Shown: positions 8,007 to 45,589 of the stretch, piece by piece
Layout of the letters: each line of letters begins with the position of its first letter
Numbering within the stretch: the first letter of the stretch is position 1
Assembly: GCA_965262715.1 (NCBI GenBank)
Contig: OZ253553.1
Location: 256,001 to 320,000, forward strand
Length of the DNA stretch: 64,000 nt
Reading direction: 5' to 3'
DNA from: Bdellovibrionales bacterium
GTDB taxonomy: Bacteria; Bdellovibrionota; Bdellovibrionia; Bdellovibrionales; JAUICD01
Translations under genes and position numbers: made by a program
Notes under the pieces: generated by a model
Database searches by the model: none
Told to the model about the DNA's origin: nothing
Seen by the model: the letters and a program-made list of their open reading frames with translations, nothing else

Positions 8007-11000
8007 CTATATTGGTTTCCAGCAACCAGTAGTTTGTAGCTGACATGTTGTACCAGTGTTATCCTCGTTACAATGAGATTCAGAGTCATAAATACACTCA
8101 TCTGGTGACCAACATCCAGCCAGTTTAACACAAGTCCGGCCAGGATTAGCCCGCAGACAAGCTGCTAGCATTTCAAACCTGTTTAGACCGGCACATTGTG
8201 CTGCCCCACACAAATAACTTGGGTTACAACCACCCATTTCGCCAAGACAGTCCTGATCTGAACAGCACTCAACGCTTTCTGTAGAAAAACAAGATACACT
8301 TTGTGAATCACTTTCGCATGTCCACTCATACTCTCGAGTAGGTTCCCAGCCATGGACAAAACACCTATTATTAACCAAGGAAGGAGTCCCTACCTTACAA
8401 CGATCTCTTCCGTAAGGTTGACTACCACACTCTGGAGCAGGAGGAGGGCAATGACTGTTGTCAGGATAAGTATCACCATCACAACATTTTGTAGTAGAAT
8501 CACAACACCCTGCTGGTGGTGGTTGAGGGCACGAGCCACAATTACATTTATTATGGAGGGGACAATCTACAGTCTTTTTTGCATCTGTACTTTGACATTT
8601 CCATTGAGCCTCTATCTGTGTACTAGTAGGTTGAAAAAGATTACCTTCTGTACATGTGCCTTGTTGCGTTGTGCCATGAACATAACCTCCACACACTGCC
8701 TTTGATGGCGGTGGAGGACAGTGAGTAGGGTTGTCTGCATGGGTCTGACCAGGACAGCATCTTACAGCTGGGTTACATCCGCAAGTGGGACTATCTTTTC
8801 CAGTACATCCATTACTAGTTGTGCCTTTACATATCCATGTTCCAGGATTTGGAGGAGGGTCTGGGTCTGGATTTCCAGCAGCACATCCGGTATCATTGCA
8901 CACTCCATCTATAGGAGGAAGGGCAGGAGGGGAAGGAGGGCAACCTTGTGGTGTGATGCCGCAAGTTCCACTCTTTCCACCACCACCTATACCCAAACAT
9001 TCCCACTGGGTAGTATTAATGTCTTGTTTAGTTCCCACAGCGCATCCAGTATCGCTGCACTTTCCATCTCTTGGACAAGTTCCAGTGTTACTTCCTGTAC
9101 CTATGCCTTTACATGTCCAGGATCCAGTAGAACTAAGAGATAAGTTAGGATTAGCAGGCTTTTGAGTTCCTGCAGAGCATCCAGATCCAGTCGGACTGCA
9201 CTTTCCATTAATATTAAGTGGGCAAGGAGTCTGAGGAGCATCATCTCCTCCATTTTCACCTTTACATATCCATGTTCCATCATTATGTTTTATTTCCGTT
9301 CCCTCACTGCATCCTGTAGGGTTGCATATTGCATTTACTTTTGTCACATCTGGTTCACAAGTTGCAGAATCTCCTCCATTTTTACCTTTACATGTCCGTG
9401 TTTTAGTAAGATCTGGAGGATCTGGGTCTGGATCTCCTTTATCACATCCAGTCGGACTGCACTCTCCATTCACTGGACACTTATCGTTGCTTCCTCCTAA
9501 ATCTGAGTGCTTATCACTATCACAACATTTCACAGCTGAGTCACATGTGCCGCAAACTCCGCTATCATCTCCTTTATTTTCACCTTTACATATCCATGTT
9601 ACATCAGGAGGTGTTGCATTTTCTTTATCTCCGTATTTGCAACCATCATTAGGAGTATCGCACTCTCCATTCACTGGACAGTTATCGTTGCTTCCTCCTA
9701 AGTCTGAGTGCTTATCAGTGTCACAACATTCTTTACTTGGGTCACATGCAGACGGTGGTCTTCCACAACATTCTCCTCCATTTTCAGTAACTTCCTGAGG
9801 TTCTTTGTTATCTATAAGAGGAATCTTAATCCAGTCATCAGAACCCCAAAGCTGCTGCGTATTGAGGCTTGCACAAGTACTTGCAGTATGTGTCCAATTC
9901 GATGTATCTGATGCACCATCACCTGTGTATCCTTGTGCTTCTGCTAAACTTTGACAAGTCGGTCTGCAAACTCCATCATCATTGATCTCTTGAACATGAC
10001 ATGTCCCTGAACTTGCACAGTTAGTAGCACAGAATTGCCCTGTGCAATCTCCTCCTTCTGATACTAGACAACAAGCCTTTCCATTTGCCTTGACACAATC
10101 AGATGGACAATTCGAGTTACTGGGGAAAGTATCACCTGTGGATGGACAACATTCCACAGTTGAATCACAAGGAGGTGGTGTCACTCCTAATTCTAGTGCA
10201 CATGAAGCTGGCCTAGCATCACACCGCTCCGAAGATAAATTCCCTCCACCAACACCTAGATCAGGACAACCTCCACTGGGGACACCACATGCTCCACTAA
10301 AACTCACAGTATGAGTTCTTGGTGTAGGAGTATATTGATATACATCACAGGCATGGCACCTATGAGGATTACAGTTATAAGGATTACACTGAACTGATAC
10401 AGTCTGACAATTTAGCCCATTCAGGTCACATTGTTGCTGTGAACAAGTATTGTAACAAGTATCGTAACAAGTATGTGAACATGGTGTTCTGCAACTTTGA
10501 GCACAACTGACTGTACAAGAACCACTATCACACCCTATTGTATAAGTTCCAGAGGTATCACAAGTGAGATCAGTTGAACCAGTAGGTTGACATGTTCCAC
10601 TTTTTGAGTAACTACATGAATTTCCTTGCCTTCTCCCTACACAAGCAGATGTTGGCCCTGTCTCACTACAAGGAGATGTCGAATTACAAGGAAGGTCATA
10701 ATGGCAATCATACAAGCCTAGTGGTGGACAACCGGATGCTGAATCCTGTTGAGTCCTACCTCCCCCCTTGGGATTAGAGCAAGAGTTTGGGTATGAGTTT
10801 GTTTCACACTCATCTGTTCCAACAGTCCCACATTCATTCCTAAACCCATCACAGCAGATCAATTGAGGTTCACATTGCACATTTGTACATTTGCATGATG
10901 GGCCTGTACACGTAGGCTTGTGAGGAACATAAACACTCCACTCTGTGTCTTTACAAACTCCGGATCCAGTTCCACCACAAACATGGTGATATTTAGTGGA

Positions 11001-13039: not shown

Positions 13040-13534
13040 TTAACAAAAAAAATAACATTAAAAAAAATAAGGTATTATTTGGAGTTATGAATAAAAGTTC
13101 TGTACAAACACCTTAGTGTATATGATTTATCTCACATCTTATTGTAACTTAAGCTGTGATAAAAAGAAACTATTAAAATTATCAATTACTGTATCAATAA
13201 GATATATATAGGTTAAAAAAATATTTCAAATTAAAGAAAGGTGTTTCAAATAAAGAAAATGTTATTCAAAATGTTTCAAATTGATTGAATAATTATGACT
13301 CATAAATAGAACATCTGGTATTCCAGCAGACAAGATAATCAGGTAACGGTATTAGGTAACAGTCATAAAATTAAGCTATTAACTGGCAAGTACTTTTTAC
13401 ATCATTATAGAAGGTTAACATTACTGATAACAGGTGTAGTTTGCCTGCTTCCCTGTTTGCCCGACTGCCGAATTAAAATAAAAACTTAATAAAATGTAAT
13501 TTGTAAATTCGATATGCTATCTTGCAAAAAGTAA
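13040..13534 (-). repeat. Upstream region of copy A, homologous (inverted) to 37681-38160
   Basis: Near-identical close to the gene, increasingly diverged distally. Confidence 0.85.
13225..13280. promoter_or_regulatory. Phased TTCAAA repeats upstream of Cys-rich gene A
   Basis: TTCAAA ends at 13230, 13250, 13270 and 13280; preserved as TTTGAA at 37921, 37931, 37951 and 37971. Confidence 0.4.
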
Positions 13535-13653
13535 TAACTCATAGAAGGGCTCTTAAAAAATAAGTTTTGTATTTTAAAATAAGTATAACTCGACTTCATA
13601 CAAAATCAACATTCTGACAAAAGAAGCAAGTTGGTAACAGCCATAGAATTGCT

Positions 13654-14361
13654 TTAGTTCATTTCAGTTAAAATATTCTCAAGAGTTTTTCTAGGATCCT
13701 TTGAATAAATTATAGGACGACCTATGACCAGAGCGGATGCTCCATTGAGTAGAGCCTCTTGAGGGCTCATAACTCTTTTTTGATCTTCTAAAATTTGAGC
13801 TTTATGTAATCTTACACCAGGGGTAATGATATTTAAGTCATTATGCGCTCTTCTTATCTCTTTAGCTTCATGTGGAGAACAGACAACTCCATTCAGTCCA
13901 GATTCTACAGTTAAATTAACTAGCATTTTAACATGATCTAAAATGGAAATATTCTTCAGGTTGGAAGGTAGTGTATCAGAAGAAAAACTTGTTAAGATTG
14001 TTACACTTAGGATATGAAAAGCGCGCTTATTCTGCAGTTTACTTTCTAATGAGGCCAACTGTTCTAAAGCAACACGGCCTGCTAAGGCATGGACAGTTAC
14101 TAAACTAGCTCCTTGGTCAAAACAAGCTTGAGTCGCATTGACCATGGTACTTGGTATATCGTAAAACTTTTGGTCAATAAAAAGAGGAGCCATGTCCGCA
14201 AGTTTTTTAATAAAGGATTTATCAGATCTTAATAATAACCTAGGGCCTACTTTGTAGGCACCAACAATATCTTTTAAAGATTCTGCTAAAAACATAGCTT
14301 CTTTAGGATGATTTACATCTAATGCTACAATAATAGGGGTTTTTATATTAAGCTTTGACAT
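13654..14361 (-). CDS. pyrF: Orotidine-5'-phosphate decarboxylase
   Basis: IVALD, YKVG, DQKFYDIPST, VTILTS, TPGVR, DQKRV, IGRPI. Confidence 0.95.
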   Translation of the reverse strand: MSKLNIKTPIIVALDVNHPKEAMFLAESLKDIVGAYKVGPRLLLRSDKSFIKKLADMAPLFIDQKFYDIPSTMVNATQACFDQGASLVTVHALAGRVALEQLASLESKLQNKRAFHILSVTILTSFSSDTLPSNLKNISILDHVKMLVNLTVESGLNGVVCSPHEAKEIRRAHNDLNIITPGVRLHKAQILEDQKRVMSPQEALLNGASALVIGRPIIYSKDPRKTLENILTEMN

Positions 14362-14996
14362 ATTTGCCTATTTTTTCCTGTTTATCAAAAATAATACCAA
14401 TATTAAATATTTTACAACTTATTTTTAATAAAATGCCAAAAAATACGGTCAATAAATTGAGGATATAACTTTATTTTTTTATTTTCATACATAATACATA
14501 ATTTTAAAGTTATTTATTTTAGAGTTTCATAAAAAAATAATGAATATGTAAAATTTAGCTTGCATATTTGTCTCATATCGTGTAAGGTTTTCTTAACTCG
14601 TTAAAAAGTGACTTTATTTGAGACAGTTTCAATTAAAGTCATTTAATAATAATGGCATCCTTTGATCAATACAAGATAGCAATTCATGTAGAGTGGTGTT
14701 CAATACCCACTGCTGCTTTCAGTAGCCTTTAGTAGTTTGTTTATCTTGTCATAAATACACTTAAAATGTGTTCTTAGACTTTTTTTATAGCTTGAGACTT
14801 TAGAAATACTTTAGTTTTAACAATTAAAGATTTTCTATATGTTGTTATGACAACAATGAGAACTGAAAAGGTTACTTTGAAATAAATTTATTTTACTAAA
14901 AATATCAAAGAAAGATAAGCTACACATTTTACTTACAAATTGAGTTCTAAGTCTGTTTTTTATTGTTTTAATACTTTGTAGAAAGGTGGTATAAAG

Positions 14997-16076
14997 ATGT
15001 CAAATAATTGTTTTGTTTTACCAAATCAAAATATCTCATTATCTATTTTTGAAATGCAAAAAAATAAATTATCATCAAAGATTTTATATAGGTCTAAAAT
15101 CATGCATTCCTTATTAAAGATGACTGAGCGTGTGGCCTCTTCAAGCGCAAATGTTCTAACTCTTGGAGATAGTGGTACTGGAAAAGAGCTTATCGCAAGA
15201 TATATTCATGAGCGGTCTCAAAGAGCCAATAATTCTTTCGTGGCCATTAACTGCAGTGCCCTAAGAGAATCTCTTTTAGAAAGTGAACTTTTTGGCCATG
15301 AAAAAGGTGCTTTTACAGGTGCTTATTCTCAAAAAGTTGGTTTAGCAGAAGTAGCTAGCGGAGGCACTCTCTTTTTGGATGAAATTGCTGAATTATCTCT
15401 TAATATTCAAGCTAAACTTTTAAGATTTATTCAAGAAAGCGAAATTTATCGTGTTGGTGGCAAAAAACCAATTAAGGTAGATATTCGATTAGTGACTGCA
15501 ACAAACAAGAATTTAGAAACAGAAGTGATTAAAGGAAATTTTAGAGAAGATCTTTTTTATCGTATCAACACAATCATGATAAATATCCCTTCTCTTAGAA
15601 GAAGAAGAGAAGATATCTCTCTTTTAGTGAATCATTTCTTATCACAATCTAATAATAAGAGCAATGGTGAGAATTCAAAAAGTTTGGAGTGCAAAAAAGT
15701 CATGAGTGCAGAAACAATGAAGCTCATGGTAAAATATGATTGGCCGGGCAATGTGCGAGAGCTTCAAAACGCATGTCAGAGATTGAGAATTCTTGCAGAA
15801 GGTCCTGTCATTAAGCCAACTGATCTTCCAGAGAACATTCTTTATTCAGATCAAAAGGTCATTACAGATGCTTATGATCCTACTGTTAATTTGCATGATC
15901 TTGAAAGACGTTATATTTTAGAGGCTCTCAAGTATTTTGAAGGCAATAAAACAAAAACAGCTCGTGCTCTTGGTATGACCATCAAAACTCTTTATAATAG
16001 ACTTCACGAATACAATCAATTTAAGAAAAAGCAATACAAGGATCAAGCTGAGAAGGTCAAAACAGTCACAATTTAA
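14997..16076 (+). CDS. Sigma-54-dependent transcriptional activator (AAA plus Fis HTH) with no obvious N-terminal sensor
   Basis: GDSGTGKE, GAFTGA, FLDEI, WPGNVREL, GNKTKTARALG. Confidence 0.92.
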   Translation: MSNNCFVLPNQNISLSIFEMQKNKLSSKILYRSKIMHSLLKMTERVASSSANVLTLGDSGTGKELIARYIHERSQRANNSFVAINCSALRESLLESELFGHEKGAFTGAYSQKVGLAEVASGGTLFLDEIAELSLNIQAKLLRFIQESEIYRVGGKKPIKVDIRLVTATNKNLETEVIKGNFREDLFYRINTIMINIPSLRRRREDISLLVNHFLSQSNNKSNGENSKSLECKKVMSAETMKLMVKYDWPGNVRELQNACQRLRILAEGPVIKPTDLPENILYSDQKVITDAYDPTVNLHDLERRYILEALKYFEGNKTKTARALGMTIKTLYNRLHEYNQFKKKQYKDQAEKVKTVTI

Positions 16077-16085
16077 AGTGTCTAG

Positions 16086-16115
16086 AGCAGGAGAGTTAAT
16101 TCTCCTGCTTTTTTT
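16086..16115 (+). terminator. Rho-independent terminator
   Basis: AGCAGGAGA-gttaat-TCTCCTGCT followed by a T-tract. Confidence 0.85.
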
Positions 16116-16434
16116 GTCTAAAAAATAAGACTGTCCCATCTATAAATCCTACTTAAGGGATCATAAAAAACTCTCATATTTATTTTATTAATAAAGGTTT
16201 TTTATACTATTACTTATTGCTATTTTAGTGAGAGTCATAAAGGTAGTTACAGAGGGTTTTAGGTAGAAAAGGTATTTTAAGGCACAATGCATCTTTCACT
16301 TGCATTTATAAAGTAAATATCTTAAATTATTATTATATATGGTATTATTATATATGGGTAGAAAATAGGTACCTGTTATTATATTAGAGATTATTTAAAA
16401 AATAATAAAAAACAAAAATAACATGAGGTAGGAG

Positions 16435-16677
16435 ATGGCACGTATAACTGTTGAAGATTGTTTAGACAACGTCACTAATCGTTTTGATTTGGTGATTTTA
16501 GTTACTAGAAGAGCAAAGTCCTTATTTAGAGGTGCAGAACCCACAGTACAAACTAAAGGTGAAAACAAGCAAGTGGTCACTGCATTAAGAGAGGTAGCTG
16601 CAGGTTACGTGAAGTTTAAATATGATGAGTCGTTAGGCACGCCTATTGAGCAAATTGAACGCGACCTTAATCGCTGA
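16435..16677 (+). CDS. rpoZ: RNA polymerase omega subunit
   Basis: MARITVEDCL...NRFDLV...ALRE; upstream of spoT. Confidence 0.95.
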   Translation: MARITVEDCLDNVTNRFDLVILVTRRAKSLFRGAEPTVQTKGENKQVVTALREVAAGYVKFKYDESLGTPIEQIERDLNR

Positions 16678-16802
16678 GGGGATGAACGTAAATAAAAACA
16701 GATATTTATGGTAAGTGGCACATATAAACGCCTATAAATTGTGTGAAATTTTTATAAAGAGTCTTAGTCATTTAACAATAAAAAACTGTTCAAAGGAGAC
16801 AG

Positions 16803-19058: not shown

Positions 19059-19125
19059 TATCTTTATCTCAATGATCTCTATTCAATAAGCAAAAAAATT
19101 GAATATCTCTACAAGAGATATTAAT

Positions 19126-19593
19126 ATGAATACAAGGATTGCTCCTCGGACAGCTAACTTTATTAAAGATCAACTTAGAAAAGCTGCTGCATTCTATAGA
19201 GATGAAGCCGAACACAGTAGAGAGATTGGTGACTTAGGAATGTCGAATTGGTATGCTAATAGAGGCTTACAAATAGCAGAATTAGAAAGACAACTTGGTT
19301 CACGGATAACATTTGGAGATGTAGATGAGATTGGAACCTATATTCAAACAATTGCAGAAGATCATGAATACGATGTTATTGATGAAGAACAACGAGGGAC
19401 GTTAAGACGAGAGATATATGGAGGTGAAAAGCTTATTGGAAAGCATCATGCTTCAAACAAATTGGGGCTAGGATCAGGGTATTCTAGATGTAGAGACTGG
19501 ATTGAGGGAGATGTTGACAGAATTATTGCCAGATACCGTGAAATTGGAACTGTTAGACCTTTTAATAGAAAAGGTACAAGTAAACTTCGATGA
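19126..19593 (+). CDS. Hypothetical protein
   Basis: Open frame; ATG at 19126 (track start TTG 19099); no motif recognised. Confidence 0.55.
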   Translation: MNTRIAPRTANFIKDQLRKAAAFYRDEAEHSREIGDLGMSNWYANRGLQIAELERQLGSRITFGDVDEIGTYIQTIAEDHEYDVIDEEQRGTLRREIYGGEKLIGKHHASNKLGLGSGYSRCRDWIEGDVDRIIARYREIGTVRPFNRKGTSKLR

Positions 19594-20914: not shown

Positions 20915-20938
20915 GGTTTGACTTCCTTATCAATATCT

Positions 20939-21864: not shown

Positions 21865-21875
21865 GATATAACTTA

Positions 21876-34293: not shown

Positions 34294-34309
34294 AGGTGGT
34301 CTCATCATG

Positions 34310-35269
34310 TTATAAAGAATATTCTATGATGACAAAAAATTCGTCAAGTCCTTCTAAAAAACTTTCAGATCCCATAACAGACACTAAGAGTGGTGGAAGA
34401 AGAGTTCTTTCGATGTCAGAAGGCGGCCGATGAGGCAATAGAGCAAAGATAAAAGCAGCATTTCCACGATTAAGACTTATTTGATCAAATGTTTGCAGGT
34501 TCTCTATACGTCTAGCATTTGCTTCTACACCTTCCAAAAGAGCAATTTCAATATTTGATTGCAGCATGACACTGGCTTCAGAAATCTCATTAACTGTGAC
34601 TTCCATCAAGATGCCAATTTGTCCGAAAGTCTCATCTTCAGTTCTTATGGAAAACTCTCTATTTTGAGGAGATGGTGATGCAGGTACTTGCCATGAGCTT
34701 TGTATGAGTATGTTTTTATTCTCATTTGGTATGGACCCAAAAGAACCTGCAAAATCAGAAATAATGCCGTATTGCCCTGATTGAAGCTCTGCTGTTTGAA
34801 GTGAGGTGATATCACTAGGCATCACAAGAAAATAAGCTTTGATGACACCTGATGAAAAAGCATCTATTTTAGCCTCATCCTCAGAGGCGTCTTTCTTGTT
34901 TTTAGTCTTATCTTCATCAATTTCTTCTGATATAAAAGCATTTTGAGAAAACAAACTTGGAGGTTTTCTAGTTTCTTGTGATATTTCTAATTCTTCTTCG
35001 AGTTTTTGAGGAGGCATGCTATCTATTGCCGTGTAATCCAGATTGGAAGGAGATATACTTCCATCTTCCTCAAAATGAATTAAGACTTTTTTATAAGCAA
35101 AGAAAGTCGTGACAAGAACGACACAGCATAGCAAAACAATATAGAAACTCGTGCTTTCAGTTACTTTTTGGAGAAAAGAACGGTTTTGTGGTATGTTCAT
35201 ATCGATACCACATTTTGCGCAAAAAATATCCTTTGGCTGTTGAAATTTGCAGTTTGGGCAAGTGACCAT
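34310..35269 (-). CDS. Zinc-ribbon membrane-anchored hypothetical protein
   Basis: MVTCPNC...CAKCG followed by one TM helix. Confidence 0.7.
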   Translation of the reverse strand: MVTCPNCKFQQPKDIFCAKCGIDMNIPQNRSFLQKVTESTSFYIVLLCCVVLVTTFFAYKKVLIHFEEDGSISPSNLDYTAIDSMPPQKLEEELEISQETRKPPSLFSQNAFISEEIDEDKTKNKKDASEDEAKIDAFSSGVIKAYFLVMPSDITSLQTAELQSGQYGIISDFAGSFGSIPNENKNILIQSSWQVPASPSPQNREFSIRTEDETFGQIGILMEVTVNEISEASVMLQSNIEIALLEGVEANARRIENLQTFDQISLNRGNAAFIFALLPHRPPSDIERTLLPPLLVSVMGSESFLEGLDEFFVIIEYSL

Positions 35270-35573
35270 CAGATATATATAACTCCAAAGGCATTGTATA
35301 GCCAATTAATTATAGAACAAATCATTAAAAAAAGCACTAAAAATACTGACTTTAGATGGGTTTTAGAACCTTTATTTTAAACCAATCTTTTGCGTAAACC
35401 AGATGTATATCATGAAATTATTATGAGGATTCAAGTAAATACCTAAACTTACAATGGAATCTCTGAGATTCTAAAGCCAAATATTCGTTATATCCATTTT
35501 AAGATTCCTCGTAGGAGAAGTTTATAAAAGCCCTGATTCTGACGATAAGTGAAATACTAAGAAGGGTTTTATA

Positions 35574-37082
35574 GTGTATAGATGGACAAAATTTTATAGA
35601 TGTAAGGTCAGTCAAAAGCCGAAGATTTATCAAGTTCTTATTTTATTAACACTTTTCCCTACTTTAGAGACTACCTTTGCTGACTCTAATATCTCCAATA
35701 TAGAAACTACAACTGTATTTGGTAATAATTGCTCTTCAAGTTATAATAATGCATTTAAAAATATTCAGAATATCATCTATCAAGAAGACTTTGAGATACA
35801 GCAAGAGCTTGTTTATGAAGCTTGTGCAGTTTCTTGTTATAAAAAAGAAAAGTGTTATGACAACACTTATCTCCAAGATAGATTAAGCCCTAGTTATGAA
35901 AATCAAGAACTCAATAGGTCACTAGATCCAAGATGTACTTATCGTGTTTTAAAAATCGCTGGAAATTCATCAGGTGGTTTTTTAGATTGTGATTCTTTTA
36001 ATGATAATAACCCTCAAGTAAGACGTCGATCTGAAAAACCTTGTTTTTCAAAGCGTCTTCATCATGCTATCCATCAATCAATTACAGAAATATCTTCTTG
36101 TTTTAGAATAGACCCTAAACTTTTTTTTTCAATCATGGCTAGAGAAAGCAAGCTTCACCCTCTTGCAAAAAACTCAACATCTAGCGCAACAGGTGTAGGA
36201 CAACTTGTTTCAACATATATTGACCAGTACAGTAATCAATCACAACGCATCACCTTCGATACTCTTAAAAGAGAGGTATTGCCTGCTTTAAGTCGTCAGA
36301 ATAGAGATTGTCGTACTGTTCAAGATAAAATAAGTCGATTTTCTAAGCTTGAAGAAAGACCTATTTGTCAAAGAACCAATCATTATGTAAATATGATTTA
36401 TACAATGATGGGTTTGATGGATAGCATAAGCCGGTTAACTCCTCTTGTTATAAAAGGACAGAGAGGGTCATTTAGAATATCAGAAGATTCACCTTTTCAT
36501 AACTTGATCAGCGAATATGAATATAACTTAGATCAAAAAGATGCAGAAAATACTAGAATTCAAAGTGCCTTGACAGCTGCAAATCAAGGAGATGGAGAAT
36601 ATCGTATTCGCGCGCAAACTCCTGAGCAAAAAGCCAGAGAAGTACAAAGATTGCAATCTCATCTTCAACATAGTGATAATGAGGTAAGAGGTTTAAGAGA
36701 GAAAAAATATTTCTTTGAAAACTTAGCTAGGTTTCAAGAACTCAACGTGGATGACAGAAACTTAGTCTCAGAGTTGTCTATTTATTCGCATATGCTACCA
36801 CGTACAACAGAGTTATTTCAAACTTATGTTGACGATAGACGTTCTTTGGCATTTGAAGACTTTACTGGGCTTAATGGTCAGTGGGTCAACTTTCTTAGTG
36901 CAGGTGGAATAAGAAGGCAGATGGGTGTTGGGAAGAGACTACAAGACTATTTTATAGAATTTGTTTACAGTCCAGGAGAGAGTTCACCAGGCAGTTCACC
37001 TAGTGCATCTATGATGCATGGACTACTTAACCGTATTGAACAACAAGAGCCGGATATTTCACATAGATGCAGACCTTACTAA
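35574..37082 (+). CDS. Secreted protein with lytic transglycosylase (SLT) domain
   Basis: IDPKLFFSIMARESK...SATGVGQL motif. Confidence 0.75.
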   Translation: MYRWTKFYRCKVSQKPKIYQVLILLTLFPTLETTFADSNISNIETTTVFGNNCSSSYNNAFKNIQNIIYQEDFEIQQELVYEACAVSCYKKEKCYDNTYLQDRLSPSYENQELNRSLDPRCTYRVLKIAGNSSGGFLDCDSFNDNNPQVRRRSEKPCFSKRLHHAIHQSITEISSCFRIDPKLFFSIMARESKLHPLAKNSTSSATGVGQLVSTYIDQYSNQSQRITFDTLKREVLPALSRQNRDCRTVQDKISRFSKLEERPICQRTNHYVNMIYTMMGLMDSISRLTPLVIKGQRGSFRISEDSPFHNLISEYEYNLDQKDAENTRIQSALTAANQGDGEYRIRAQTPEQKAREVQRLQSHLQHSDNEVRGLREKKYFFENLARFQELNVDDRNLVSELSIYSHMLPRTTELFQTYVDDRRSLAFEDFTGLNGQWVNFLSAGGIRRQMGVGKRLQDYFIEFVYSPGESSPGSSPSASMMHGLLNRIEQQEPDISHRCRPY

Positions 37083-37120
37083 GTAACTCGTTACTAAGTA
37101 ACTCGTTACTAAGCAGATCG
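37076..37120 (+). repeat. 15-bp tandem repeat TTACTAAGTAACTCG x3 (third copy degenerate) over the stop codon
   Basis: Read directly; the two perfect units contain the palindrome TTACT-A-AGTAA. Confidence 0.9.
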
Positions 37121-37159
37121 TTTTTCTAAAAAAGTTAATTTAAAGAGAGTTAATTAATT

Positions 37160-37561
37160 ATGTGGAAAAAAGTATTTATTGTATTCTTTTTAGGATTTGT
37201 TAGTTATGCTTATAGTCAAGAGAGCTTAACTGAAGATGTTGCAATGACTGATCAAAGCTTGCAAGCAGAACCTAATTTTGAAGATCGTGTTCGTATTATC
37301 AATGAATTTGTTGAGAAAGCTTCTCAGAGACGAGAGAAGCTTATAAAACAAAGAAGAAGGACAGATGAAGAGATTTTAGTTTTATTTCATATTAATATTC
37401 TTCGAAGTTTTCATAACGAATTAGACACAAGCAGTTCTTCTAATTGTACAAGAAGTCTAGGTAATGCAAAGGCGACCCTTTATCCAAATAGATTTCAAGA
37501 AGTAATGCTTCCTTTTGAACAGTCTATATACAATGTGTATAAAAAAACATGTGCTCTTTAA
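37160..37561 (+). CDS. Secreted hypothetical protein
   Basis: Sec-type signal peptide MWKKVFIVFFLGFVSYAYS. Confidence 0.7.
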   Translation: MWKKVFIVFFLGFVSYAYSQESLTEDVAMTDQSLQAEPNFEDRVRIINEFVEKASQRREKLIKQRRRTDEEILVLFHINILRSFHNELDTSSSSNCTRSLGNAKATLYPNRFQEVMLPFEQSIYNVYKKTCAL

Positions 37562-37680
37562 CCATCTTATAATTGCTTTACCAAATTCTTGAGAATATTT
37601 TAGCCGAGATGAGTTAAATTACTTGAAGCCATCCTAAAATGTAGAATTGGTCTTAAAAATGCTATGTCTATTATTTGAAC

Positions 37681-38160
37681 TTACCTTTTGCAAGATAGCA
37701 TATTGAATTTACAAATTACATTTTATCAAGTTTTTATTTTAATCCAGCAGTTGGGCAAGCAAGAATGCAGGCAAATTGCATCTGTTATCAGTAATGTTAA
37801 CCTTCTATGAAGATTAAAAAACATTTACCAGCTAACAGTTTAGCTCTGATACCATTGCCGGATTGCCTCGTCTGCTGAAATGCGAGATGTTCTATTTATG
37901 AATCATAATTATTCAATCAATTTGAAACGCTTTGAATAACATTTTCTTTATTTGAAACACCTTTCTTTAATTTGAAATATTTTTTTAACCTATATATATC
38001 TTATTGATACAGTATTGATAATTTTAATAGTTTCTTTTTATCACAGCTTAAGTTACAATAAGATGTGAGATAAATCATATACACTAAGGTGTTTGTACAG
38101 AACTTTTATTCATAACTCCAAATAATACCTTATTTTTTTTAATGTTATTTTTTTTGTTAA
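37681..38160 (+). repeat. Native upstream region of Cys-rich gene copy B, separated from it by the IS
   Basis: Inverted homolog of 13040-13534. Confidence 0.85.
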
Positions 38161-38210
38161 ACTTAAATTATCTTTGGGTTCTACAAATGTTTAAAACATG
38201 TAACTTTTCT
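38161..38210 (+). repeat. 50-bp target-site duplication, left copy (contains the ATG of MFKTC)
   Basis: Identical to 40167-40216. Confidence 0.95.
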
Positions 38211-40166
38211 CCTGAGTTTGACAGTTGCGAAAATAAAGTTAAGTTATTTTAGTTAGTTACAGTGGATGTGTGATTTTGTACCACTACATTTTGATTTTGT
38301 GGTAGAGATTTAAGAGATTGTTTGTAGGTCTAAGTAGATTCTACTTTAAGTTGTTTTGATGGGATCTTTGCTCCTATAGCTTTAAATACATCAGCATTGT
38401 TACCGTTAATATCTGTTCTGATCCAAAGTGTCTTATCCTTTACCCTCACAGGTATAGCTCGTACTTCTTTCAGCTTTGACATAGCTTCTGCCACACTCAA
38501 TGGCCTTGACTTTATTCTCTTGTCTGTAATTGCTTTATCTTTTAATGTGATGTTTCTCTGATGTAACTTCTTTGAAAAATAAGCCTCACATAAGTAAGAT
38601 AAAAAACACACAACTAAATGTCCTAAGATCCTCTTATCTGTCCAGTGGAACATAGGACGTGTCTTTAATGTACCTTTCAATTCTCTAAATGAATTCTCTA
38701 CCTTCCATAATTGCTTATAGTTCGTTATAATCTCTTCAGAACTTAAACTATCTGTATTTGTAATGATTCCAAAAAAACCATCTGTCCTCTCTGATTGTTC
38801 TATGGCTGACTTATTTAAAGTAGGCTTGCCTTTACTCTTAGGATGAATAATATACTTCTTATAATTGCTATTAGATACAAAATCCTTTGTGCTTGATGAC
38901 GATTTTGAAAGCTTATCTTCTAACTTAGATAGAATATCTTCTCTTACTTTCTTATCTCGTTCTGCTCTCTTTCTTGACCAGGTAATTATACAACGATTAT
39001 CATTATAACTCGTCTCGTATATAGCTAAATTTTCATTTATAAATTTAAAATTCTTTAAATTGTATATCTCTGCATGACGATCCTTTAATAAACCTAGCTT
39101 TAATCCTACTATAAATTCATCTCCCTTTGCTTTTACAGATTGTAAATTCTCATTAGAAAATAAACCTCTATCTCCTACTAATATAAATCTTCTGATCTTA
39201 AACTTCTTTTTTAGTTTCTCCATAACTGAAGGTATGGTTTTACCTTCAAAGGTATTTCCAGGATAAACATCAAAGCCTAAGGGCATACCTTCTCTATCTA
39301 CTAAAAGTCCAAATACCACCTGGGTACAATCACTCCTCTTCTCTTTGCTATAACCAAATCTTCGAAGATTATCTAAATCCTCTCGGGTACTCTCAAATCT
39401 CAATGTCGTTAAATCATACAAAATAACATCACACTCATTGAAAAAACTTAACTGAGACTTACCTTGTGTATAAAGAGTCTTCTCTATATCTTCCTTATGC
39501 TTACTTAGAATATCTAAAGAACGATAAATGTCTTGAAGATGAAGCTCCTCTTCTAAAAAATCAGGGTAAAATAACTTCTGCCAGTGTGAAAATACTTTAA
39601 GCTTAGAACATGGCTCTACAAAACGGCTTATAACCAATGTAAAAATAATCTTAACAAAATCAAATTGTACTTTAGGGTGCTTTTGTTTTAAATCTGTTAA
39701 TAATTCATAGAGATTTAATTGTTTGAAAATAGCATCTATTATAAGTAAGGGACCTAATATAAAAGTGTCTTTAACATCAATCTCTTTTAATAACTTACTA
39801 GCAGGAATTATCTCTAACTCTTTAGATAATACTTCTAGAAGCTTCTTCAAGTTAACTTCCTTATCCGCGGCTTTACCTAAAGACATTAGAATCCTTTGCT
39901 TCACTTGAGAACCTAATCTGTAGCTCTCAACAAGATGATAATATATGTCTCCTCTCGGATTTCTTGTAGACCTTATGAACATAAAAATACATTACAAGAA
40001 AAATATAAAAAATAAAAGAAAATAAGGTATATGACGCGTAGTGTATGATAAATAAGTACACTACACTTTTTGACCAAAATACAAACACAATAACCGCTAA
40101 TGACTATAAATACAACATTCCTTGAAAAAAATATCACGAAAATTCAAATTAAGTGTCAAACTCAGG
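38211..40166 (-). mobile_element. IS1634-family insertion sequence (element B)
   Basis: Perfect 13-bp TIR CCTGAGTTTGACA/TGTCAAACTCAGG; 50-bp flanking direct repeat. Confidence 0.95.
38330..39982 (-). CDS. IS1634-family DDE transposase (distinct from element A)
   Basis: YDLTTLRFES, GYSKE, YPGNTFE, VGDRGL, YKQLWKVENSFRELK..L.TRPMFHW. Confidence 0.95.
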   Translation of the reverse strand: MFIRSTRNPRGDIYYHLVESYRLGSQVKQRILMSLGKAADKEVNLKKLLEVLSKELEIIPASKLLKEIDVKDTFILGPLLIIDAIFKQLNLYELLTDLKQKHPKVQFDFVKIIFTLVISRFVEPCSKLKVFSHWQKLFYPDFLEEELHLQDIYRSLDILSKHKEDIEKTLYTQGKSQLSFFNECDVILYDLTTLRFESTREDLDNLRRFGYSKEKRSDCTQVVFGLLVDREGMPLGFDVYPGNTFEGKTIPSVMEKLKKKFKIRRFILVGDRGLFSNENLQSVKAKGDEFIVGLKLGLLKDRHAEIYNLKNFKFINENLAIYETSYNDNRCIITWSRKRAERDKKVREDILSKLEDKLSKSSSSTKDFVSNSNYKKYIIHPKSKGKPTLNKSAIEQSERTDGFFGIITNTDSLSSEEIITNYKQLWKVENSFRELKGTLKTRPMFHWTDKRILGHLVVCFLSYLCEAYFSKKLHQRNITLKDKAITDKRIKSRPLSVAEAMSKLKEVRAIPVRVKDKTLWIRTDINGNNADVFKAIGAKIPSKQLKVEST

Positions 40167-40192
40167 ACTTAAATTATCTTTGGGTTCTACAA

Positions 40193-43100
40193 ATGTTTAA
40201 AACATGTAACTTTTCTTCTTATCTTAGTTTAGGGACAAAGCGTTTCACTCATCGTGGCCAGCAGGGGATGATGTTAGTGGAGATTATTTTAATAGCCGTG
40301 TTTTTAGCGACTGTAGCAGTAGGGACCAGTTATTTTTTTACTCAAACAAAAGTCACTATGAGCTCTTCCTCTCAAGTTACACAGTGTGACACTATTGCAA
40401 AACAAGCCTTAGAAAGTGTTGTGTCTTTAGGAGCGCGTCTTTATGGATATAAAATTCACCATACAGGCACTGATCATTTTATATTTATGTATGAACCATT
40501 GTTTATTAAAGATGATGGTGGAGTTGTTAAGGATGTTGGCAGTGGTAGTGAGCTTTCTTTTCCTCCAGAGATGTACAATGAATTATATAAAAGCCTTGGC
40601 ATCACTCCTCCTACAGGAGACCCCCAATCAAATACAGGTAAGCCTCTTATTGGAGCTACTTATCCTTTTGACATATCTACGTCAACACTCATTGTGAATT
40701 CTGTGAATGCTCTTCAATATCTTTACAATTCAGATAATGGATTTTTTACAGAGAACAGTGGTGATGGTAAAATGTACACAGTTAATGGCATGAATAGTGG
40801 TAACATGTTTTCTATATTAGAGAAGTATGGAGATCAATTTGATTTAGAGAACCTAAAATTTTATATAAAAATATCTCCAATAAACTTACAAACAGAAAAG
40901 CCAATAGCATCTCCCCCCAGTAAGATTTTAACACGTCCTCGTTTTCATAATCCTCAAGGAGCGCAATTATCCCCAGCCTTAAATGTATTAGGTGATCCAG
41001 AAATTGGTTTTGAGATTACAATCATGTTGAAATACAATCGTAACGATCAAGGGTATAGATGTAATGCTTCTCATAGGTTTGCTCATCAGATAAAGCCAAT
41101 AACGGCAACGCTGTCAAAAGCTATTCATGCAGCTATGGTAGGCTTGACTACTGGAGCTGGCCAAGACCTTTTAACTAATTCAACCTTATTGTTGACCTCT
41201 TGTGACACTGATGGTGCTGGTTATGATGATATAACAGTCACAGTCAATTTTAATGGTATACAAGAAAGCCAGCAGATAGGCACAGTCATTTTATGTCAGA
41301 TGAACTCTTATTGCAGATCTTATGGAGATGCAAGTTACAATGGTTGTAATCCTCAGTTAGGTCGTTGGCAGAGATGTCATCATATTCAACCTACGGGTCC
41401 AGACCAGGATTGGAAATACGCATCGCAACTTACAAACCCTCAAGTTCTTGAGATGGAATTTAGTGATATGAAAACAGATAGAAGATATGAATTGAATGTT
41501 GGCGAATTTTCTATGGCAGGTCGCAATTTAAGAAAGAAGATGGTGTCCAGATTTTACATTGATGCTATTAGACCTACTATATCAAGTAGGAGTATTACTA
41601 ATGATGCAGTAGGTACTCCTGATGATGGTGGAGGAGGCCGTGATTACGATGGTCTTTTCACAAATTGGATAAAACCTGGAGATTCAACAAACAAATGGGT
41701 TCAGTGCAATCAAGACACAGTTGAGTTTTCAGCAAGTATAGAAGATCAATTCACTCATAATCTAGAAAAGTGTGAGCTTGAAGGGGAAAGAGAAGATGGA
41801 AACGGTACAGCTGCAACAAGTCCAACTTTAACTTCAGATTGCGGGGGAGAGCTGAGTGGAGTTCAGCAAGGCAGACAAACGATCACCTTCACTCCCAAGG
41901 ACACATGCGGAGGTACAAATACAAAAGACTTAGTATGGGATACAGATTTACCCAGTAAATTTGAGACTCATGACTTTCCAAATGACCCTGAGTGGCTCAA
42001 AAGTACAGATAAGGATGCTTATCTTATAAAAACAGTGCTTCCTGCAAAAGATACTGCAGGGGAACTTCCAAAGCACTATTCCGTAGATTGTAATGATAAT
42101 TTTATGGGCAGTAGAGCTAGAAAAGATGGTGATGGTGGTCAGTTGGATTGTAAGTTAGAGGGGAGCAAGCCTTATCATGATGATGGCTGCAATCCCATCC
42201 AATTTTCCACTAAATATCACCATGTTTGTGGTGGAACTGGATCCGGAGTTTGTAAAGACACAGAGTGGAGTGTTTATGTTCCTCACAAGCCTACGTGTAC
42301 AGGCCCATCATGCAAATGTACAAATGTGCAATGTGAACCTCAATTGATCTGCTGTGATGGGTTTAGGAATGAATGTGGGACTGTTGGAACAGATGAGTGT
42401 GAAACAAACTCATACCCAAACTCTTGCTCTAATCCCAAGGGGGGAGGTAGGACTCAACAGGATTCAGCATCCGGTTGTCCACCACTAGGCTTGTATGATT
42501 GCCATTATGACCTTCCTTGTAATTCGACATCTCCTTGTAGTGAGACAGGGCCAACATCTGCTTGTGTAGGGAGAAGGCAAGGAAATTCATGTAGTTACTC
42601 AAAAAGTGGAACATGTCAACCTACTGGTTCAACTGATCTCACTTGTGATACCTCTGGAACTTATACAATAGGGTGTGATAGTGGTTCTTGTACAGTCAGT
42701 TGTGCTCAAAGTTGCAGAACACCATGTTCACATACTTGTTACGATACTTGTTACAATACTTGTTCACAGCAACAATGTGACCTGAATGGGCTAAATTGTC
42801 AGACTGTATCAGTTCAGTGTAATCCTTATAACTGTAATCCTCATAGGTGCCATGCCTGTGATGTATATCAATATACTCCTACACCAAGAACTCATACTGT
42901 GAGTTTTAGTGGAGCATGTGGTGTCCCCAGTGGAGGTTGTCCTGATCTAGGTGTTGGTGGAGGGAATTTATCTTCGGAGCGGTGTGATGCTAGGCCAGCT
43001 TCATGTGCACTAGAATTAGGAGTGACACCACCTCCTTGTGATTCAACTGTGGAATGTTGTCCATCCACAGGTGATACTTTCCCCAGTAACTCGAATTGTC

Positions 43101-45589
43101 CATCTGATTGTGTCAAGGCAAATGGAAAGGCTTGTTGTCTAGTATCAGAAGGAGGAGATTGCACAGGGCAATTCTGTGCTACTAACTGTGCAAGTTCAGG
43201 GACATGTCATGTTCAAGAGATCAATGATGATGGAGTTTGCAGACCGACTTGTCAAAGTTTAGCAGAAGCACAAGGATACACAGGTGATGGTGCATCAGAT
43301 ACATCGAATTGGACACATACTGCAAGTACTTGTGCAAGCCTCAATACGCAGCAGCTTTGGGGTTCTGATGACTGGATTAAGATTCCTCTTATAGATAACA
43401 AAGAACCTCAGGAAGTTACTGAAAATGGAGGAGAATGTTGTGGAAGACCACCGTCTGCATGTGACCCAAGTAAAGAATGTTGTGACACTGATAAGCACTC
43501 AGACTTAGGAGGAAGCAACGATAACTGTCCAGTGAATGGAGAGTGCGATACTCCTAATGATGGTTGCAAATACGGAGATAAAGAAAATGCAACACCTCCT
43601 GATGTAACATGGATATGTAAAGGTGAAAATAAAGGAGATGATAGCGGAGTTTGCGGCACATGTGACTCAGCTGTGAAATGTTGTGATAGTGATAAGCACT
43701 CAGATTTAGGAGGAAGCAACGATAAGTGTCCAGTGAATGGAGAGTGCAGTCCGACTGGATGTGATAAAGGAGATCCAGACCCAGATCCTCCAGATCTTAC
43801 TAAAACACGGACATGTAAAGGTAAAAATGGAGGAGATTCTGCAACTTGTGAACCAGATGTGACAAAAGTAAATGCAATATGCAACCCTACAGGATGCAGT
43901 GAGGGAACGGAAATAAAACATAATGATGGAACATGGATATGTAAAGGTGAAAATGGAGGAGATGATGCTCCTCAGACTCCTTGCCCACTTAATATTAATG
44001 GAAAGTGCAGTCCGACTGGATCTGGATGCTCTGCAGGAACTCAAAAGCCTGCTAATCCTAACTTATCTCTTAGTTCTACTGGATCCTGGACATGTAAAGG
44101 CATAGGTACAGGAAGTAACACTGGAACTTGTCCAAGAGATGGAAAGTGCAGCGATACTGGATGCGCTGTGGGAACTAAAAATCCACCAAATGCTCCACCT
44201 GGAACATGGATATGTGAAGGCATAGGTGGAGGTGGAGATAGCGCAACTTGCGGATGTAACCCAGCTAGTGAATGTTGTTCTGGTCAAACTTATGCAGAGA
44301 ATCCTGATCATTGTCCTATTACTGGTATAGATGGAGTATGTGGTACTATGCATACTGATCCATGTGGTAGTGGAGTCTCAAATCCATCTTTCCCAGCTCC
44401 TACTGCCACATGGATATGTAGAGGTATAGATGGAGGAGGAAGTAGCGCGACATGTTGTGATATACAATTCGGTTGCAGTCCAGGTGATCCCGTAGATGGA
44501 GTTTGTAATATCTCTAACGGATGCTCTTTTGGAGATCGATATCCAACTTCTGGTGGTGCAAAATGGAGATGCTTAGGTGTATTGGGAGGAGAAAGCGTTG
44601 ATTGTTGTGATTCCACTCAAACATGTTGTGATGGTGATACTTATTCCAGCAACTCTCATTGTTCTTTAGATGGAGTGTGCAGTTCTACTGGATGCACTGC
44701 TGGAGATCCAAACCCAAATCCTCCACCAAATCCCGGAACATGGATATGTGAAGGTAAAAATGGAGGAAAAGATAGTCTCACTTGCGGATGTAATCCAACT
44801 TTGAAATGTTGTCCTGGTCAAACCTGTACAGACAACCCCACTCATTGTACTTGTCCAATACCACCTCCAGCTTGTGGAGGTTATCTTCATGGCACAGGAG
44901 GCACATGTGCAGCAGGTAGTATTGTTAATGTGCTTACCAATACATCGCTGCTGTATAAATGGGAATGTAAAGCGGGTGGAAACACTGCGAATTGTCCTGC
45001 CCATGATAAATGTCATTGTGGCTCGTGCCCTCAACCACTACCACCAGGGTGTTGTAATTCCAGTGCAGCATGTTGCCCGAATGATGACTACAATAGCAAC
45101 CCTACTCATTGTATTCCTCCTCCAGTAGATGGAGTGTGCGATATTCCTAATCGTGACTGCGAGGAGGGAGAGAAGAAGACAATTAATGCTAAAAAGTGGG
45201 AATGTTTAGGTCAACATGCAGGACAAAAGGCCACTTGCGAAATTTCATGTGACTCAACTGTGAAATGTTGTGATGGAGAAGATGGTGATGACACATATGC
45301 AACTAACCACCTTTGCGAATGTCCTGGCCGTCTTCAAAGACTTACTGCTACTGACCCTTGTGTGTTCCTACTGGGACAATGTGGCCACTATTGTGGTGGA
45401 TGTCAAACTGGCAATGGTAGGAGCGGCCAAGGAGAAAACGAAGAATGTAAGCCAGGTAGTAGTGCAAATGATTTTCGGTGTACGTGGGAATGTGCCGGTG
45501 TAGGGGACTATAAGGGAAAAGCAATAGATAAAGATTGTCGGGGCTCTTATGATGGAGGTGGTATTTGCGCTGATCCGGGTATATGGTAA
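40193..45589 (+). CDS. Giant Cys-rich protein with type IV prepilin-like leader, copy B (1798 aa from MFKTC)
   Basis: First 1329 aa same as copy A; different 469-aa tail; predicted processing before 40268. Confidence 0.8.
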   Translation: MFKTCNFSSYLSLGTKRFTHRGQQGMMLVEIILIAVFLATVAVGTSYFFTQTKVTMSSSSQVTQCDTIAKQALESVVSLGARLYGYKIHHTGTDHFIFMYEPLFIKDDGGVVKDVGSGSELSFPPEMYNELYKSLGITPPTGDPQSNTGKPLIGATYPFDISTSTLIVNSVNALQYLYNSDNGFFTENSGDGKMYTVNGMNSGNMFSILEKYGDQFDLENLKFYIKISPINLQTEKPIASPPSKILTRPRFHNPQGAQLSPALNVLGDPEIGFEITIMLKYNRNDQGYRCNASHRFAHQIKPITATLSKAIHAAMVGLTTGAGQDLLTNSTLLLTSCDTDGAGYDDITVTVNFNGIQESQQIGTVILCQMNSYCRSYGDASYNGCNPQLGRWQRCHHIQPTGPDQDWKYASQLTNPQVLEMEFSDMKTDRRYELNVGEFSMAGRNLRKKMVSRFYIDAIRPTISSRSITNDAVGTPDDGGGGRDYDGLFTNWIKPGDSTNKWVQCNQDTVEFSASIEDQFTHNLEKCELEGEREDGNGTAATSPTLTSDCGGELSGVQQGRQTITFTPKDTCGGTNTKDLVWDTDLPSKFETHDFPNDPEWLKSTDKDAYLIKTVLPAKDTAGELPKHYSVDCNDNFMGSRARKDGDGGQLDCKLEGSKPYHDDGCNPIQFSTKYHHVCGGTGSGVCKDTEWSVYVPHKPTCTGPSCKCTNVQCEPQLICCDGFRNECGTVGTDECETNSYPNSCSNPKGGGRTQQDSASGCPPLGLYDCHYDLPCNSTSPCSETGPTSACVGRRQGNSCSYSKSGTCQPTGSTDLTCDTSGTYTIGCDSGSCTVSCAQSCRTPCSHTCYDTCYNTCSQQQCDLNGLNCQTVSVQCNPYNCNPHRCHACDVYQYTPTPRTHTVSFSGACGVPSGGCPDLGVGGGNLSSERCDARPASCALELGVTPPPCDSTVECCPSTGDTFPSNSNCPSDCVKANGKACCLVSEGGDCTGQFCATNCASSGTCHVQEINDDGVCRPTCQSLAEAQGYTGDGASDTSNWTHTASTCASLNTQQLWGSDDWIKIPLIDNKEPQEVTENGGECCGRPPSACDPSKECCDTDKHSDLGGSNDNCPVNGECDTPNDGCKYGDKENATPPDVTWICKGENKGDDSGVCGTCDSAVKCCDSDKHSDLGGSNDKCPVNGECSPTGCDKGDPDPDPPDLTKTRTCKGKNGGDSATCEPDVTKVNAICNPTGCSEGTEIKHNDGTWICKGENGGDDAPQTPCPLNINGKCSPTGSGCSAGTQKPANPNLSLSSTGSWTCKGIGTGSNTGTCPRDGKCSDTGCAVGTKNPPNAPPGTWICEGIGGGGDSATCGCNPASECCSGQTYAENPDHCPITGIDGVCGTMHTDPCGSGVSNPSFPAPTATWICRGIDGGGSSATCCDIQFGCSPGDPVDGVCNISNGCSFGDRYPTSGGAKWRCLGVLGGESVDCCDSTQTCCDGDTYSSNSHCSLDGVCSSTGCTAGDPNPNPPPNPGTWICEGKNGGKDSLTCGCNPTLKCCPGQTCTDNPTHCTCPIPPPACGGYLHGTGGTCAAGSIVNVLTNTSLLYKWECKAGGNTANCPAHDKCHCGSCPQPLPPGCCNSSAACCPNDDYNSNPTHCIPPPVDGVCDIPNRDCEEGEKKTINAKKWECLGQHAGQKATCEISCDSTVKCCDGEDGDDTYATNHLCECPGRLQRLTATDPCVFLLGQCGHYCGGCQTGNGRSGQGENEECKPGSSANDFRCTWECAGVGDYKGKAIDKDCRGSYDGGGICADPGIW

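What the first reader, a model, noticed from the sequence alone, without database searches (positions are those of the whole stretch)
8007..45589. Candidate large inversion switch: two outward-facing giant pilin-like adhesin genes with identical bodies and different tips
Seen: 9027-13039 and 40167-44179 are a gap-free 4013-bp inverted repeat. Identity stops abruptly after codons GTK, and the tails differ (339 aa in A, 469 aa in B). Both 5' ends face the internal ~27-kb segment; A keeps its native upstream region, while B's is displaced by an IS. Established: homologous recombination between inverted repeats inverts the intervening DNA. Inference: a crossover anywhere in the repeat swaps which tail is joined to which promoter without breaking any gene. 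That gives a recombinase-free two-state switch for the adhesin tip, carrying housekeeping genes (pyrF, rpoZ, spoT, ddl, holA) as passengers.
Basis: partly seen in the sequence, partly recalled or inferred. Interest (0 to 1): 0.88.

Follow-up and report, generated by a model that had tools for sequence, protein, structure and literature searches.

The report
Recently homogenised giant pilin-like gene pair
Two genes for giant pilus-type surface proteins in an uncultured bacterium share an identical 4-kb body but different tips because one recently overwrote the other; the DNA between them could flip and swap the tips, but no flip was seen, and related genes appear to switch on and off by a simpler slippery-repeat mechanism.

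Summary
The 4,013-nt inverted repeat is real, exact and the longest exact repeat in this 2.94-Mb Bdellovibrionales-like genome. It is the newest layer of an older duplication: copy B carries the end of pyrF and the start of truA, whose full genes flank copy A, so the assembled orientation is the parental one. Identity runs 197 nt past the IS1634 that displaces B's upstream region, so homogenisation came first and the promoter asymmetry a switch needs is a very recent accident. A and B belong to an apparently undescribed family (8 copies here, 6 in a sister species) of 950-1,900-aa cysteine-rich proteins with a type IV prepilin-like N-terminus, bodies homogenised within genomes and modular, shuffled tails; 6 of these 14 carry C16-C19 runs in the leader, a phase-variation signature that A and B lack. 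Best reading: ectopic recombination in a concertedly evolving adhesin family, invertible as a by-product (0.6). A working RecA-type tip switch, like the Campylobacter fetus sap locus, stays possible (0.2): no flipped molecule was seen, but no data could phase across the repeat, and GC skew was inconclusive.

The parts
8007..13013 (-). Gene A, 1,668 aa: 25-aa basic leader, G|MMLVE prepilin-like site, hydrophobic helix, globular domain, Ig/FN3-like domain, cysteine-rich modules (8.2% Cys)
40193..45589 (+). Gene B, 1,798 aa, residues 1-1329 identical to A
9027..13039 (.). Left arm of the exact 4,013-nt inverted repeat
40167..44179 (.). Right arm of the exact inverted repeat
8007..9026 (-). Tail A, 339 aa; its last module resembles the end of the paralog at G000:C1:6066-11588
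44180..45589 (+). Tail B, 469 aa, paralogous to tail A (45% over 261 aa) with extra modules and another terminal module
7747..7908 (-). Stranded C-terminal module behind A's stop codon, 90% identical over 52 aa to the C-terminus of relative P0005: trace of an earlier tail
38211..40166 (-). IS1634-family element (1,956 nt, 13-nt terminal inverted repeats, transposase 38330-39982); 5 other full copies in the genome at 99.9-100%
38161..38210 (+). 50-nt target-site duplication (second copy 40167-40216) that contains the start codon
38014..38210 (+). 197 nt left of the IS identical to A's upstream region 12990-13186: the identity tract spans the IS site
37681..38013 (+). Displaced upstream region of B, about 90% identical to 13187-13534
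37583..37618 (+). Remnant of the pyrF 3' end (83% over 36 nt): outer edge of the duplicated unit
45608..45912 (+). Copy of A's downstream region and of the first 36 or so codons of truA (from 45806), 94-97% identical to 4820-5127 and 7178-7287
5182..7177 (+). Second IS1634-family element between A and truA, 164-nt target duplication (5018-5181, 7178-7341)
13654..14361 (-). pyrF, complete, on A's upstream side
4105..4932 (-). truA, complete, on A's downstream side
13040..40166 (.). Interior segment, 27,127 nt, that a crossover would invert; genes about evenly on both strands (9 plus, 8 minus of 150 aa or more)

Best explanation
A and B are two members of a lineage-specific multigene family of giant type IV prepilin-like surface proteins that evolves by ectopic homologous recombination. 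Step 1 (shown by footprints): a unit running from the end of pyrF to the start of truA was copied from the A site to the B site in inverted orientation, probably over an older family member next to nifU. Step 2 (inferred): tail modules were exchanged with other paralogs or strains, so the tails now differ far more than the non-coding flanks. Step 3 (shown by the identity gradient; mechanism inferred): a very recent gene conversion, or crossover with a long tract, made about 4,160 nt identical. Step 4 (order inferred): an IS1634 inserted 26 nt before B's start and moved its upstream region 2 kb away, probably lowering B's expression. The proteins are probably processed by prepilin peptidase and displayed on type IVa pili as tip adhesins (inferred). 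The 27-kb segment can invert through RecA as a by-product, and may have done so at times, but it is not shown to be a selected switch; in other family members switching is by slippage of a poly-C run in the leader.
For: Identity gradient 83% / 90% / 100% / tails 74% or less / 94-97%. Full pyrF and truA flank A, fragments flank B. A 15-kb contig of a close relative (L016; 88-91% nucleotide identity to the window's right part) has a different family member before nifU and no truA fragment. 23 of 35 family members have their closest body on their own contig or genome, with tail identity 20-85% in those pairs where tails align. Poly-C runs of 16-19 in the leader of 5 of 6 G001 members (2 in frame, 3 out) and 1 of 8 G000 members, where it is the longest of only 4 C/G runs of 8 or more in the genome. 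Other surface genes are also duplicated at 95-98% in both orientations: a cysteine-rich lipoprotein family and a major-pilin-like gene. A pilD-pilMNOPQ operon lies about 13-20 kb left of A. All phased observations are parental: this assembly and a second 21,590-nt contig with IS-derived leader plus tail B.
Against: A and B are the only pair with a 4-kb exact tract, and they lack the poly-C run while their closest relatives P0002, P0003 and P0005 have a KKKKKGG leader suggesting A/G runs (DNA not seen), which would fit a different switching device. Strand-balanced four-fold GC skew of the interior is 0.016 (95% interval -0.065 to 0.092) against 0.109 left and 0.188 right, as expected after time in both orientations. 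No structural match to a pilin was found and Pfam N_methyl does not hit A. Expression of neither gene was measured.
Confidence: 0.6

Rival explanations
1. A working two-state, RecA-dependent inversion switch: A is the expression site, B is silent behind the IS, and flips of the 27-kb segment choose which tip is displayed; repeated flips keep the bodies identical.
For: Exact 4-kb inverted repeat with outward-facing genes; RecA present, no recombinase in the window; at least two, perhaps three, ages of homology between the sites (15 differences in about 305 nt downstream against about 35 in about 335 nt upstream, p about 0.01 on approximate counts); flat four-fold GC skew inside; no sigma-70-like site on B's strand in 39850-40260; the family shows phase-variation signatures elsewhere.
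Against: No inverted molecule seen. Identity spans the IS site by 197 nt, so before the very young IS both copies had the same proximal upstream DNA and a flip would have changed little. Non-coding GC skew inside (0.047) equals the surrounding block (mean 0.055; 9 of 23 windows as low), and 2 of 23 windows have four-fold skew as low as the interior. 16 of 18 intact IS1634 copies keep their own target duplication and none has swapped flanks, so fixed crossovers between 2-kb near-identical repeats are not common here on that time scale. G001 has neither pyrF nor truA next to a family gene.
Confidence: 0.2
2. B is a silent donor cassette: tails are copied into the expressed A site by gene conversion, using the body on one side and the shared downstream flank on the other, without inversion (as with pilS to pilE).
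For: Tails are bracketed by homology on both sides (100% body; 97% over 110 nt and 94% over 308 nt downstream). A stranded older C-terminus behind A's stop shows that A's tail has been replaced before.
Against: B is a complete, intact gene with its start codon. The downstream homology next to tail A is cut to 110 nt by the second IS. Tail A's terminal module resembles another paralog, not B.
Confidence: 0.1
3. The exact identity is an assembly consensus artefact of two slightly different copies.
For: Contigs drop rare variants and cannot prove identity; no raw reads were available.
Against: In run X2 the body is covered by contigs with 0 differing letters, at depth 10.2-10.5 where the two tail contigs have 4.5 and 6.1 (consistent with two copies; depth is no strict copy number). 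In X5, from another study, one 5,855-nt contig joins 3,993 nt of body with 0 differences to tail B. The assembly resolves the 90-97% flanks and IS copies differing by 1-2 nt.
Confidence: 0.05

Closest known systems
Campylobacter fetus sap (S-layer) locus
   Same: Homologs with conserved 5' regions and variable 3' parts; inversion within the conserved 5' regions changes which homolog is expressed (title of Tu et al. 2001 seen in the reference list of PMC1950947; one sap gene mainly transcribed and frequent exchange, passage in PMC3887049). RecA dependence is recalled, not read.
   Different: There switching is demonstrated, with several homologs around one promoter and rearrangements described as under 5 kb (PMC1950947 passage). 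Here: two copies, each with its own upstream region, a 4-kb repeat, a 27-kb housekeeping interior, asymmetry made by an IS, and no inversion shown.
Staphylococcus aureus reversible chromosome inversions between inverted hsdMS paralogs (PMC6778178, passages read)
   Same: Inverted paralogs with conserved and variable parts are substrates for reversible inversion that can make hybrid genes and carries housekeeping genes along; seen only with long reads.
   Different: Megabase scale, restriction-modification genes, reported as independent of recA, with a measured phenotype.
Simple-sequence-repeat contingency loci and gene-conversion antigen families (Neisseria opa and pilE/pilS, Haemophilus hmw1A/hmw2A; recalled, general review PMC4534519 seen only in passages)
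   Same: Dispersed paralogous surface genes, slippage repeat in the leader, mosaic variable parts, homogenised constant parts.
   Different: The proteins are 950-1,900-aa cysteine-rich prepilin-like proteins of no Pfam or NCBIfam family, in an uncultured Bdellovibrionales lineage; A and B themselves lack the repeat.
Variable predator adhesins: Bdellovibrio MAT fibres (PMC10769870) and Myxococcus Kil pilus Tips (PMC12075869); abstracts and outlines read
   Same: Repertoires of surface proteins with a common base and variable tips in predatory lineages; Kil Tips are minor-pilin complexes with variable domains.
   Different: No sequence or fold link was found or tested; neither abstract mentions DNA rearrangement; lifestyle of this organism is unknown.
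IS1634 family (IS1549, IS1634)
   Same: Both transposases pass the NCBIfam IS1634 cut-off; long variable target duplications.
   Different: Duplications here reach 1,666 nt; PMC2266710 (passages) gives 8-514 bp.

Membership tests
Homology-driven inversion switch (sap-like) | Inverted homologous regions inside oppositely oriented variable genes | tested here: met
Homology-driven inversion switch (sap-like) | Both orientations exist in the population | tested here: inconclusive
   Only assembled contigs were available; none can phase across 4 kb. The assembly and a second contig are parental; GC skew mixed.
Homology-driven inversion switch (sap-like) | One expression site and a silent partner | not testable with these tools
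   No RNA run listed. Promoter scan of A's upstream region: 7 sites on both strands against 4.6 +/- 1.7 by chance; none on B's strand.
Homology-driven inversion switch (sap-like) | Arrangement conserved in relatives | tested here: inconclusive
   Not seen in G001, which is distant and shuffled; L016 shows only one side and a different body; contexts of the closest homologs could not be fetched.
Site-specific invertase switch (shufflon, fim, vsa type) | Dedicated recombinase gene in or beside the segment | tested here: not met
   None among 42 window ORFs scanned; genome hits lie at 0.89, 1.30, 1.84 and 2.05 Mb; action in trans not excluded.
Type IV pilin-like proteins | Basic leader, G at -1, E at +5, hydrophobic helix | tested here: met
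   KRFTHRGQQG|MMLVEIILIAVFLA; E30 in 90% or more of 41 aligned sequences; helix 27-54 (low confidence).
Type IV pilin-like proteins | Match to the Pfam N_methyl model | tested here: inconclusive
   No hit on A at E 0.05; hits on distant homologs P0054 and P0108; nearest Atlas clusters carry N_methyl at scores 0.79-0.80, lead only.
Type IV pilin-like proteins | Pilin alpha/beta head fold | tested here: inconclusive
   Model has long N-terminal helices packed before an antiparallel sheet (pLDDT 73.5), but no listed match to a pilin; best Z 6.7 on helices only.
Type IV pilin-like proteins | Prepilin peptidase and pilus machinery in the genome | tested here: met
   2 A24 peptidases; pilD-pilMNOPQ at G000:C1:243,800-250,600.
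Adhesin | Surface display and ligand binding | not testable with these tools
   Only architecture: weak Ig/FN3-like match for residues 308-461 (Z 5.7, rmsd 3.2, 101 aligned) and cysteine-rich repeats.
SSR contingency locus | Long homopolymer in the 5' coding region with in-frame and out-of-frame states | tested here: met
   Met for 6 of 14 family members; not met for A and B. Run lengths in long-read assemblies can be wrong.
IS1634 family | Transposase over the curated cut-off; long variable target duplication | tested here: met
   347 and 369 bits against cut-off 100; duplications of 50 and 164 nt.

The most novel reading that the evidence does not exclude
A phase-variation switch caught at birth: an IS insertion silenced one of two freshly homogenised giant pilin-like genes, so that RecA-driven flips of a 27-kb housekeeping segment now choose which adhesive tip is displayed, replacing the poly-C slippage switch used by the rest of an undescribed Bdellovibrionales adhesin family.
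Probability: 0.2. Interest if true: 0.7.

Novelty: new variant of a known kind. Interest (0 to 1): 0.42.

Why it matters
The mechanisms (gene conversion among surface-gene paralogs, homopolymer phase variation, inversion between inverted paralogs) are known. What appears new is the family: very large cysteine-rich prepilin-like proteins, expanded in one uncultured Bdellovibrionales genus, with hallmarks of contingency loci. This points to strong diversifying pressure on pilus tips (prey, host or phage) in a lineage where phase variation was not found in my searches. If flips were shown, the locus would be a clean natural example of a switch arising by accident, and it is directly testable with existing long reads.

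Tried and rejected
Reads: 9 runs hold the stretch, all kept as contigs, no RNA holder listed; 4 of 9 were laid. In X5 the A-specific parts had no cover at depth 2-4; this is not taken as absence. X6 and X7 gave short divergent pieces only and were not used. Contigs cannot phase across the repeat. GC skew as a record of flipping: four-fold sites low, non-coding sites normal; inconclusive. Swapped IS flanks as a sign of recent inversions: none among 18 copies, 2 of which had no duplication within 2,500 nt. Synteny: pyrF, truA, nifU and the 35574 gene lie far apart in G001. A sigma-54 consensus was not found upstream of any of 15 family genes (motif recalled). Fold searches found no clear match. 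Pfam and NCBIfam gave no family for A or B. Locus searches: none in genome contigs with the single protein, 6 loci of one genome with the alignment, none in metagenome contigs. The idea that the repeat is itself an IS duplication was rejected: it is inverted and not bounded by IS ends. Literature: searches returned 0 papers; one search used a guessed habitat word and gave nothing relevant, and the habitat is not established; the primary C. fetus paper was not held. No supplements were read.

Full report
Observation. The arms 9027-13039 and 40167-44179 are exact reverse complements over 4,013 nt, the longest exact repeat in the single-contig 2,939,090-nt genome G000. Genes A (8007-13013, minus, 1,668 aa) and B (40193-45589, plus, 1,798 aa) are identical for 1,329 residues and then have tails of 339 and 469 aa. 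The tails are paralogous, 45% identical over 261 residues. Its habitat is not established.

Is the identity real? Only assembled contigs of public runs were available (4 of 9 runs laid). In X2, probably the source sample and so not independent, the body is covered by two contigs with 0 differing letters at depth 10.2-10.5, the tail contigs have 4.5 and 6.1, and flanks 6.8 and 9.3: consistent with two collapsed identical copies, though the tool warns that depth is no copy number. In X5, from another study, a 5,855-nt contig joins 3,993 nt of body with 0 differences to tail B and the truA fragment; the upstream contig is B-type, and contig ends 30 nt inside the 50-nt duplication imply that the IS is present (inference). 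An artefact is unlikely (0.05) but only raw reads can exclude a few copy-specific letters.

History of the pair. Alignment of the two sites shows a unit larger than the repeat: a pyrF 3' remnant (83% over 36 nt), upstream DNA at about 90%, 197 nt exact, the IS, the exact body, the divergent tail, then 94-97% including the first codons of truA. Complete pyrF and truA flank A; fragments flank B. So B is the derived copy, and the assembled orientation is the parental one (zero or an even number of flips). A 15,070-nt contig binned in G004 but 88-91% identical to the window's right part (probably a contaminant from a close relative, since G004's own pyrF and truA are about 50% identical) has a different family member (73% nucleotide identity to A/B over 1.1 kb) before nifU and no truA fragment, so the B site probably held an older member that was overwritten. 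The tails differ far more than the non-coding flanks, which point mutation since duplication cannot explain; a stranded module behind A's stop, 90% identical to the C-terminus of relative P0005, records a tail replacement. The exact tract spans the IS site, so it most simply predates the IS; the IS is very young (5 other full copies at 99.9-100%). Before it, both genes had the same proximal upstream DNA.

The family. A search with residues 20-520 found 54 proteins, and an exhaustive search 68 of 1.84 billion representatives; 3 of 31 related genomes match, with 8 members in G000 and 6 in G001. None has a Pfam or NCBIfam family. All complete N-termini show a basic leader, G at -1, usually E at +5 and a hydrophobic helix. 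A model of residues 1-538 (pLDDT 76.4) has a helix-plus-sheet domain and a beta-sandwich with weak Ig/FN3-like matches (best Z 5.7); the first domain folded alone matched no pilin. A pilD-pilMNOPQ operon lies 13-20 kb left of A. Display on type IVa pili as a tip adhesin is an inference. So identical body with different tip is the family's normal pattern, of which A/B is the youngest case. Five of 6 G001 members and the G000 member at C1:6066 carry C16-C19 in the leader; in G001 two are in frame and three out; G000 has only 4 C/G runs of 8 or more. This is the classic slipped-strand signature (established knowledge); run lengths in long-read assemblies may be wrong. A and B have no such run. 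A cysteine-rich lipoprotein family and a major-pilin-like gene are also duplicated at 95-98%.

Does the segment flip? It can: RecA is present, no recombinase is needed or nearby, and no gene would break. Evidence that it does is lacking. The two phased observations, this assembly and a separate 21,590-nt contig encoding the IS-derived leader and tail B (possibly the same sample), are parental. Strand-balanced four-fold GC skew of the interior is 0.016 (interval -0.065 to 0.092) against 0.109 and 0.188 beside it, but 2 of 23 windows of the same block are as low and non-coding skew is ordinary. Sixteen of 18 intact IS1634 copies keep their own target duplication and none has exchanged flanks. 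Upstream and downstream flanks may be of different ages (p about 0.01, approximate counts), which suggests repeated recombination between the sites, and some such events should be crossovers (inference). Past or rare inversion is therefore plausible; a selected switch is not shown. Promoter scans say little, and no RNA run was listed.

Comparison. It would work like the Campylobacter fetus sap locus (inversion within conserved 5' regions of homologs; title seen in the reference list of PMC1950947, passages of PMC1950947 and PMC3887049; RecA dependence recalled) and like the S. aureus hsdMS inversions (PMC6778178, passages), but membership fails to be shown on the defining points: both states and a silent partner. 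Functionally it recalls variable predator adhesins (abstracts of PMC10769870 and PMC12075869), with no sequence link tested. I found no paper on this family or on phase variation of such genes in Bdellovibrionota (open-licence library only).

Verdict. Observation confirmed and extended; interpretation partly supported. Best explanation: recent ectopic homogenisation within a concertedly evolving, phase-variable family of giant prepilin-like proteins, with invertibility as a by-product (0.6); working inversion switch 0.2; silent tail cassette 0.1; artefact 0.05. Novelty: new variant of a known kind. Interest 0.42.

Noticed in passing
G000 genome-wide, e.g. C1:1497382, 1701745, 132137; window 38211-40166 and 5182-7177: IS1634-family copies have exact target duplications of 50 to 1,666 nt (16 of 18 copies, one degenerate), well beyond the 8-514 bp given in PMC2266710; another IS type at C1:908237 has about 1,660 nt. 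Such insertions duplicate whole genes or promoters.
   Followed up: partly
G000:C1:6094 and G001 loci L022-L026: Poly-C runs of 16-19 nt inside the prepilin leader of family members, in and out of frame: probable phase variation in a Bdellovibrionales lineage.
   Followed up: partly
G000:C1:54661-86108, 873085, 1453021, 1629833, 2736758, 414706: A second family of about 1,030-aa cysteine-rich predicted lipoproteins, at least 8 copies, several 95-98% identical, some truncated, sharing cysteine modules with the A/B tails.
   Followed up: no
G000:C1:1185640-1186428 and 1718700-1719488: A major-pilin-like gene is duplicated with its surroundings (96.5% over 2.95 kb).
   Followed up: no
L016:5250-5570 (G004:C4): A tandem array of about 14 copies of a 26-nt unit follows the family gene; the whole contig looks like a contaminant in G004 from a close relative of G000.
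   Followed up: no
window 46200-46520 and 48898-49087: Short palindromic repeats with very many partial copies elsewhere in the genome.
   Followed up: no
window 27463-30092: AAA ATPase plus DUF3226 (TOPRIM-like) pair and a PemK/MazF-like gene inside the interior segment: possible defence or toxin-antitoxin genes.
   Followed up: no
window 1968-3071: TadA/CpaF-like ATPase near truA, about 5 kb from gene A.
   Followed up: no
G000 whole genome: GC skew changes sign many times along the chromosome, which suggests several large past rearrangements.
   Followed up: partly
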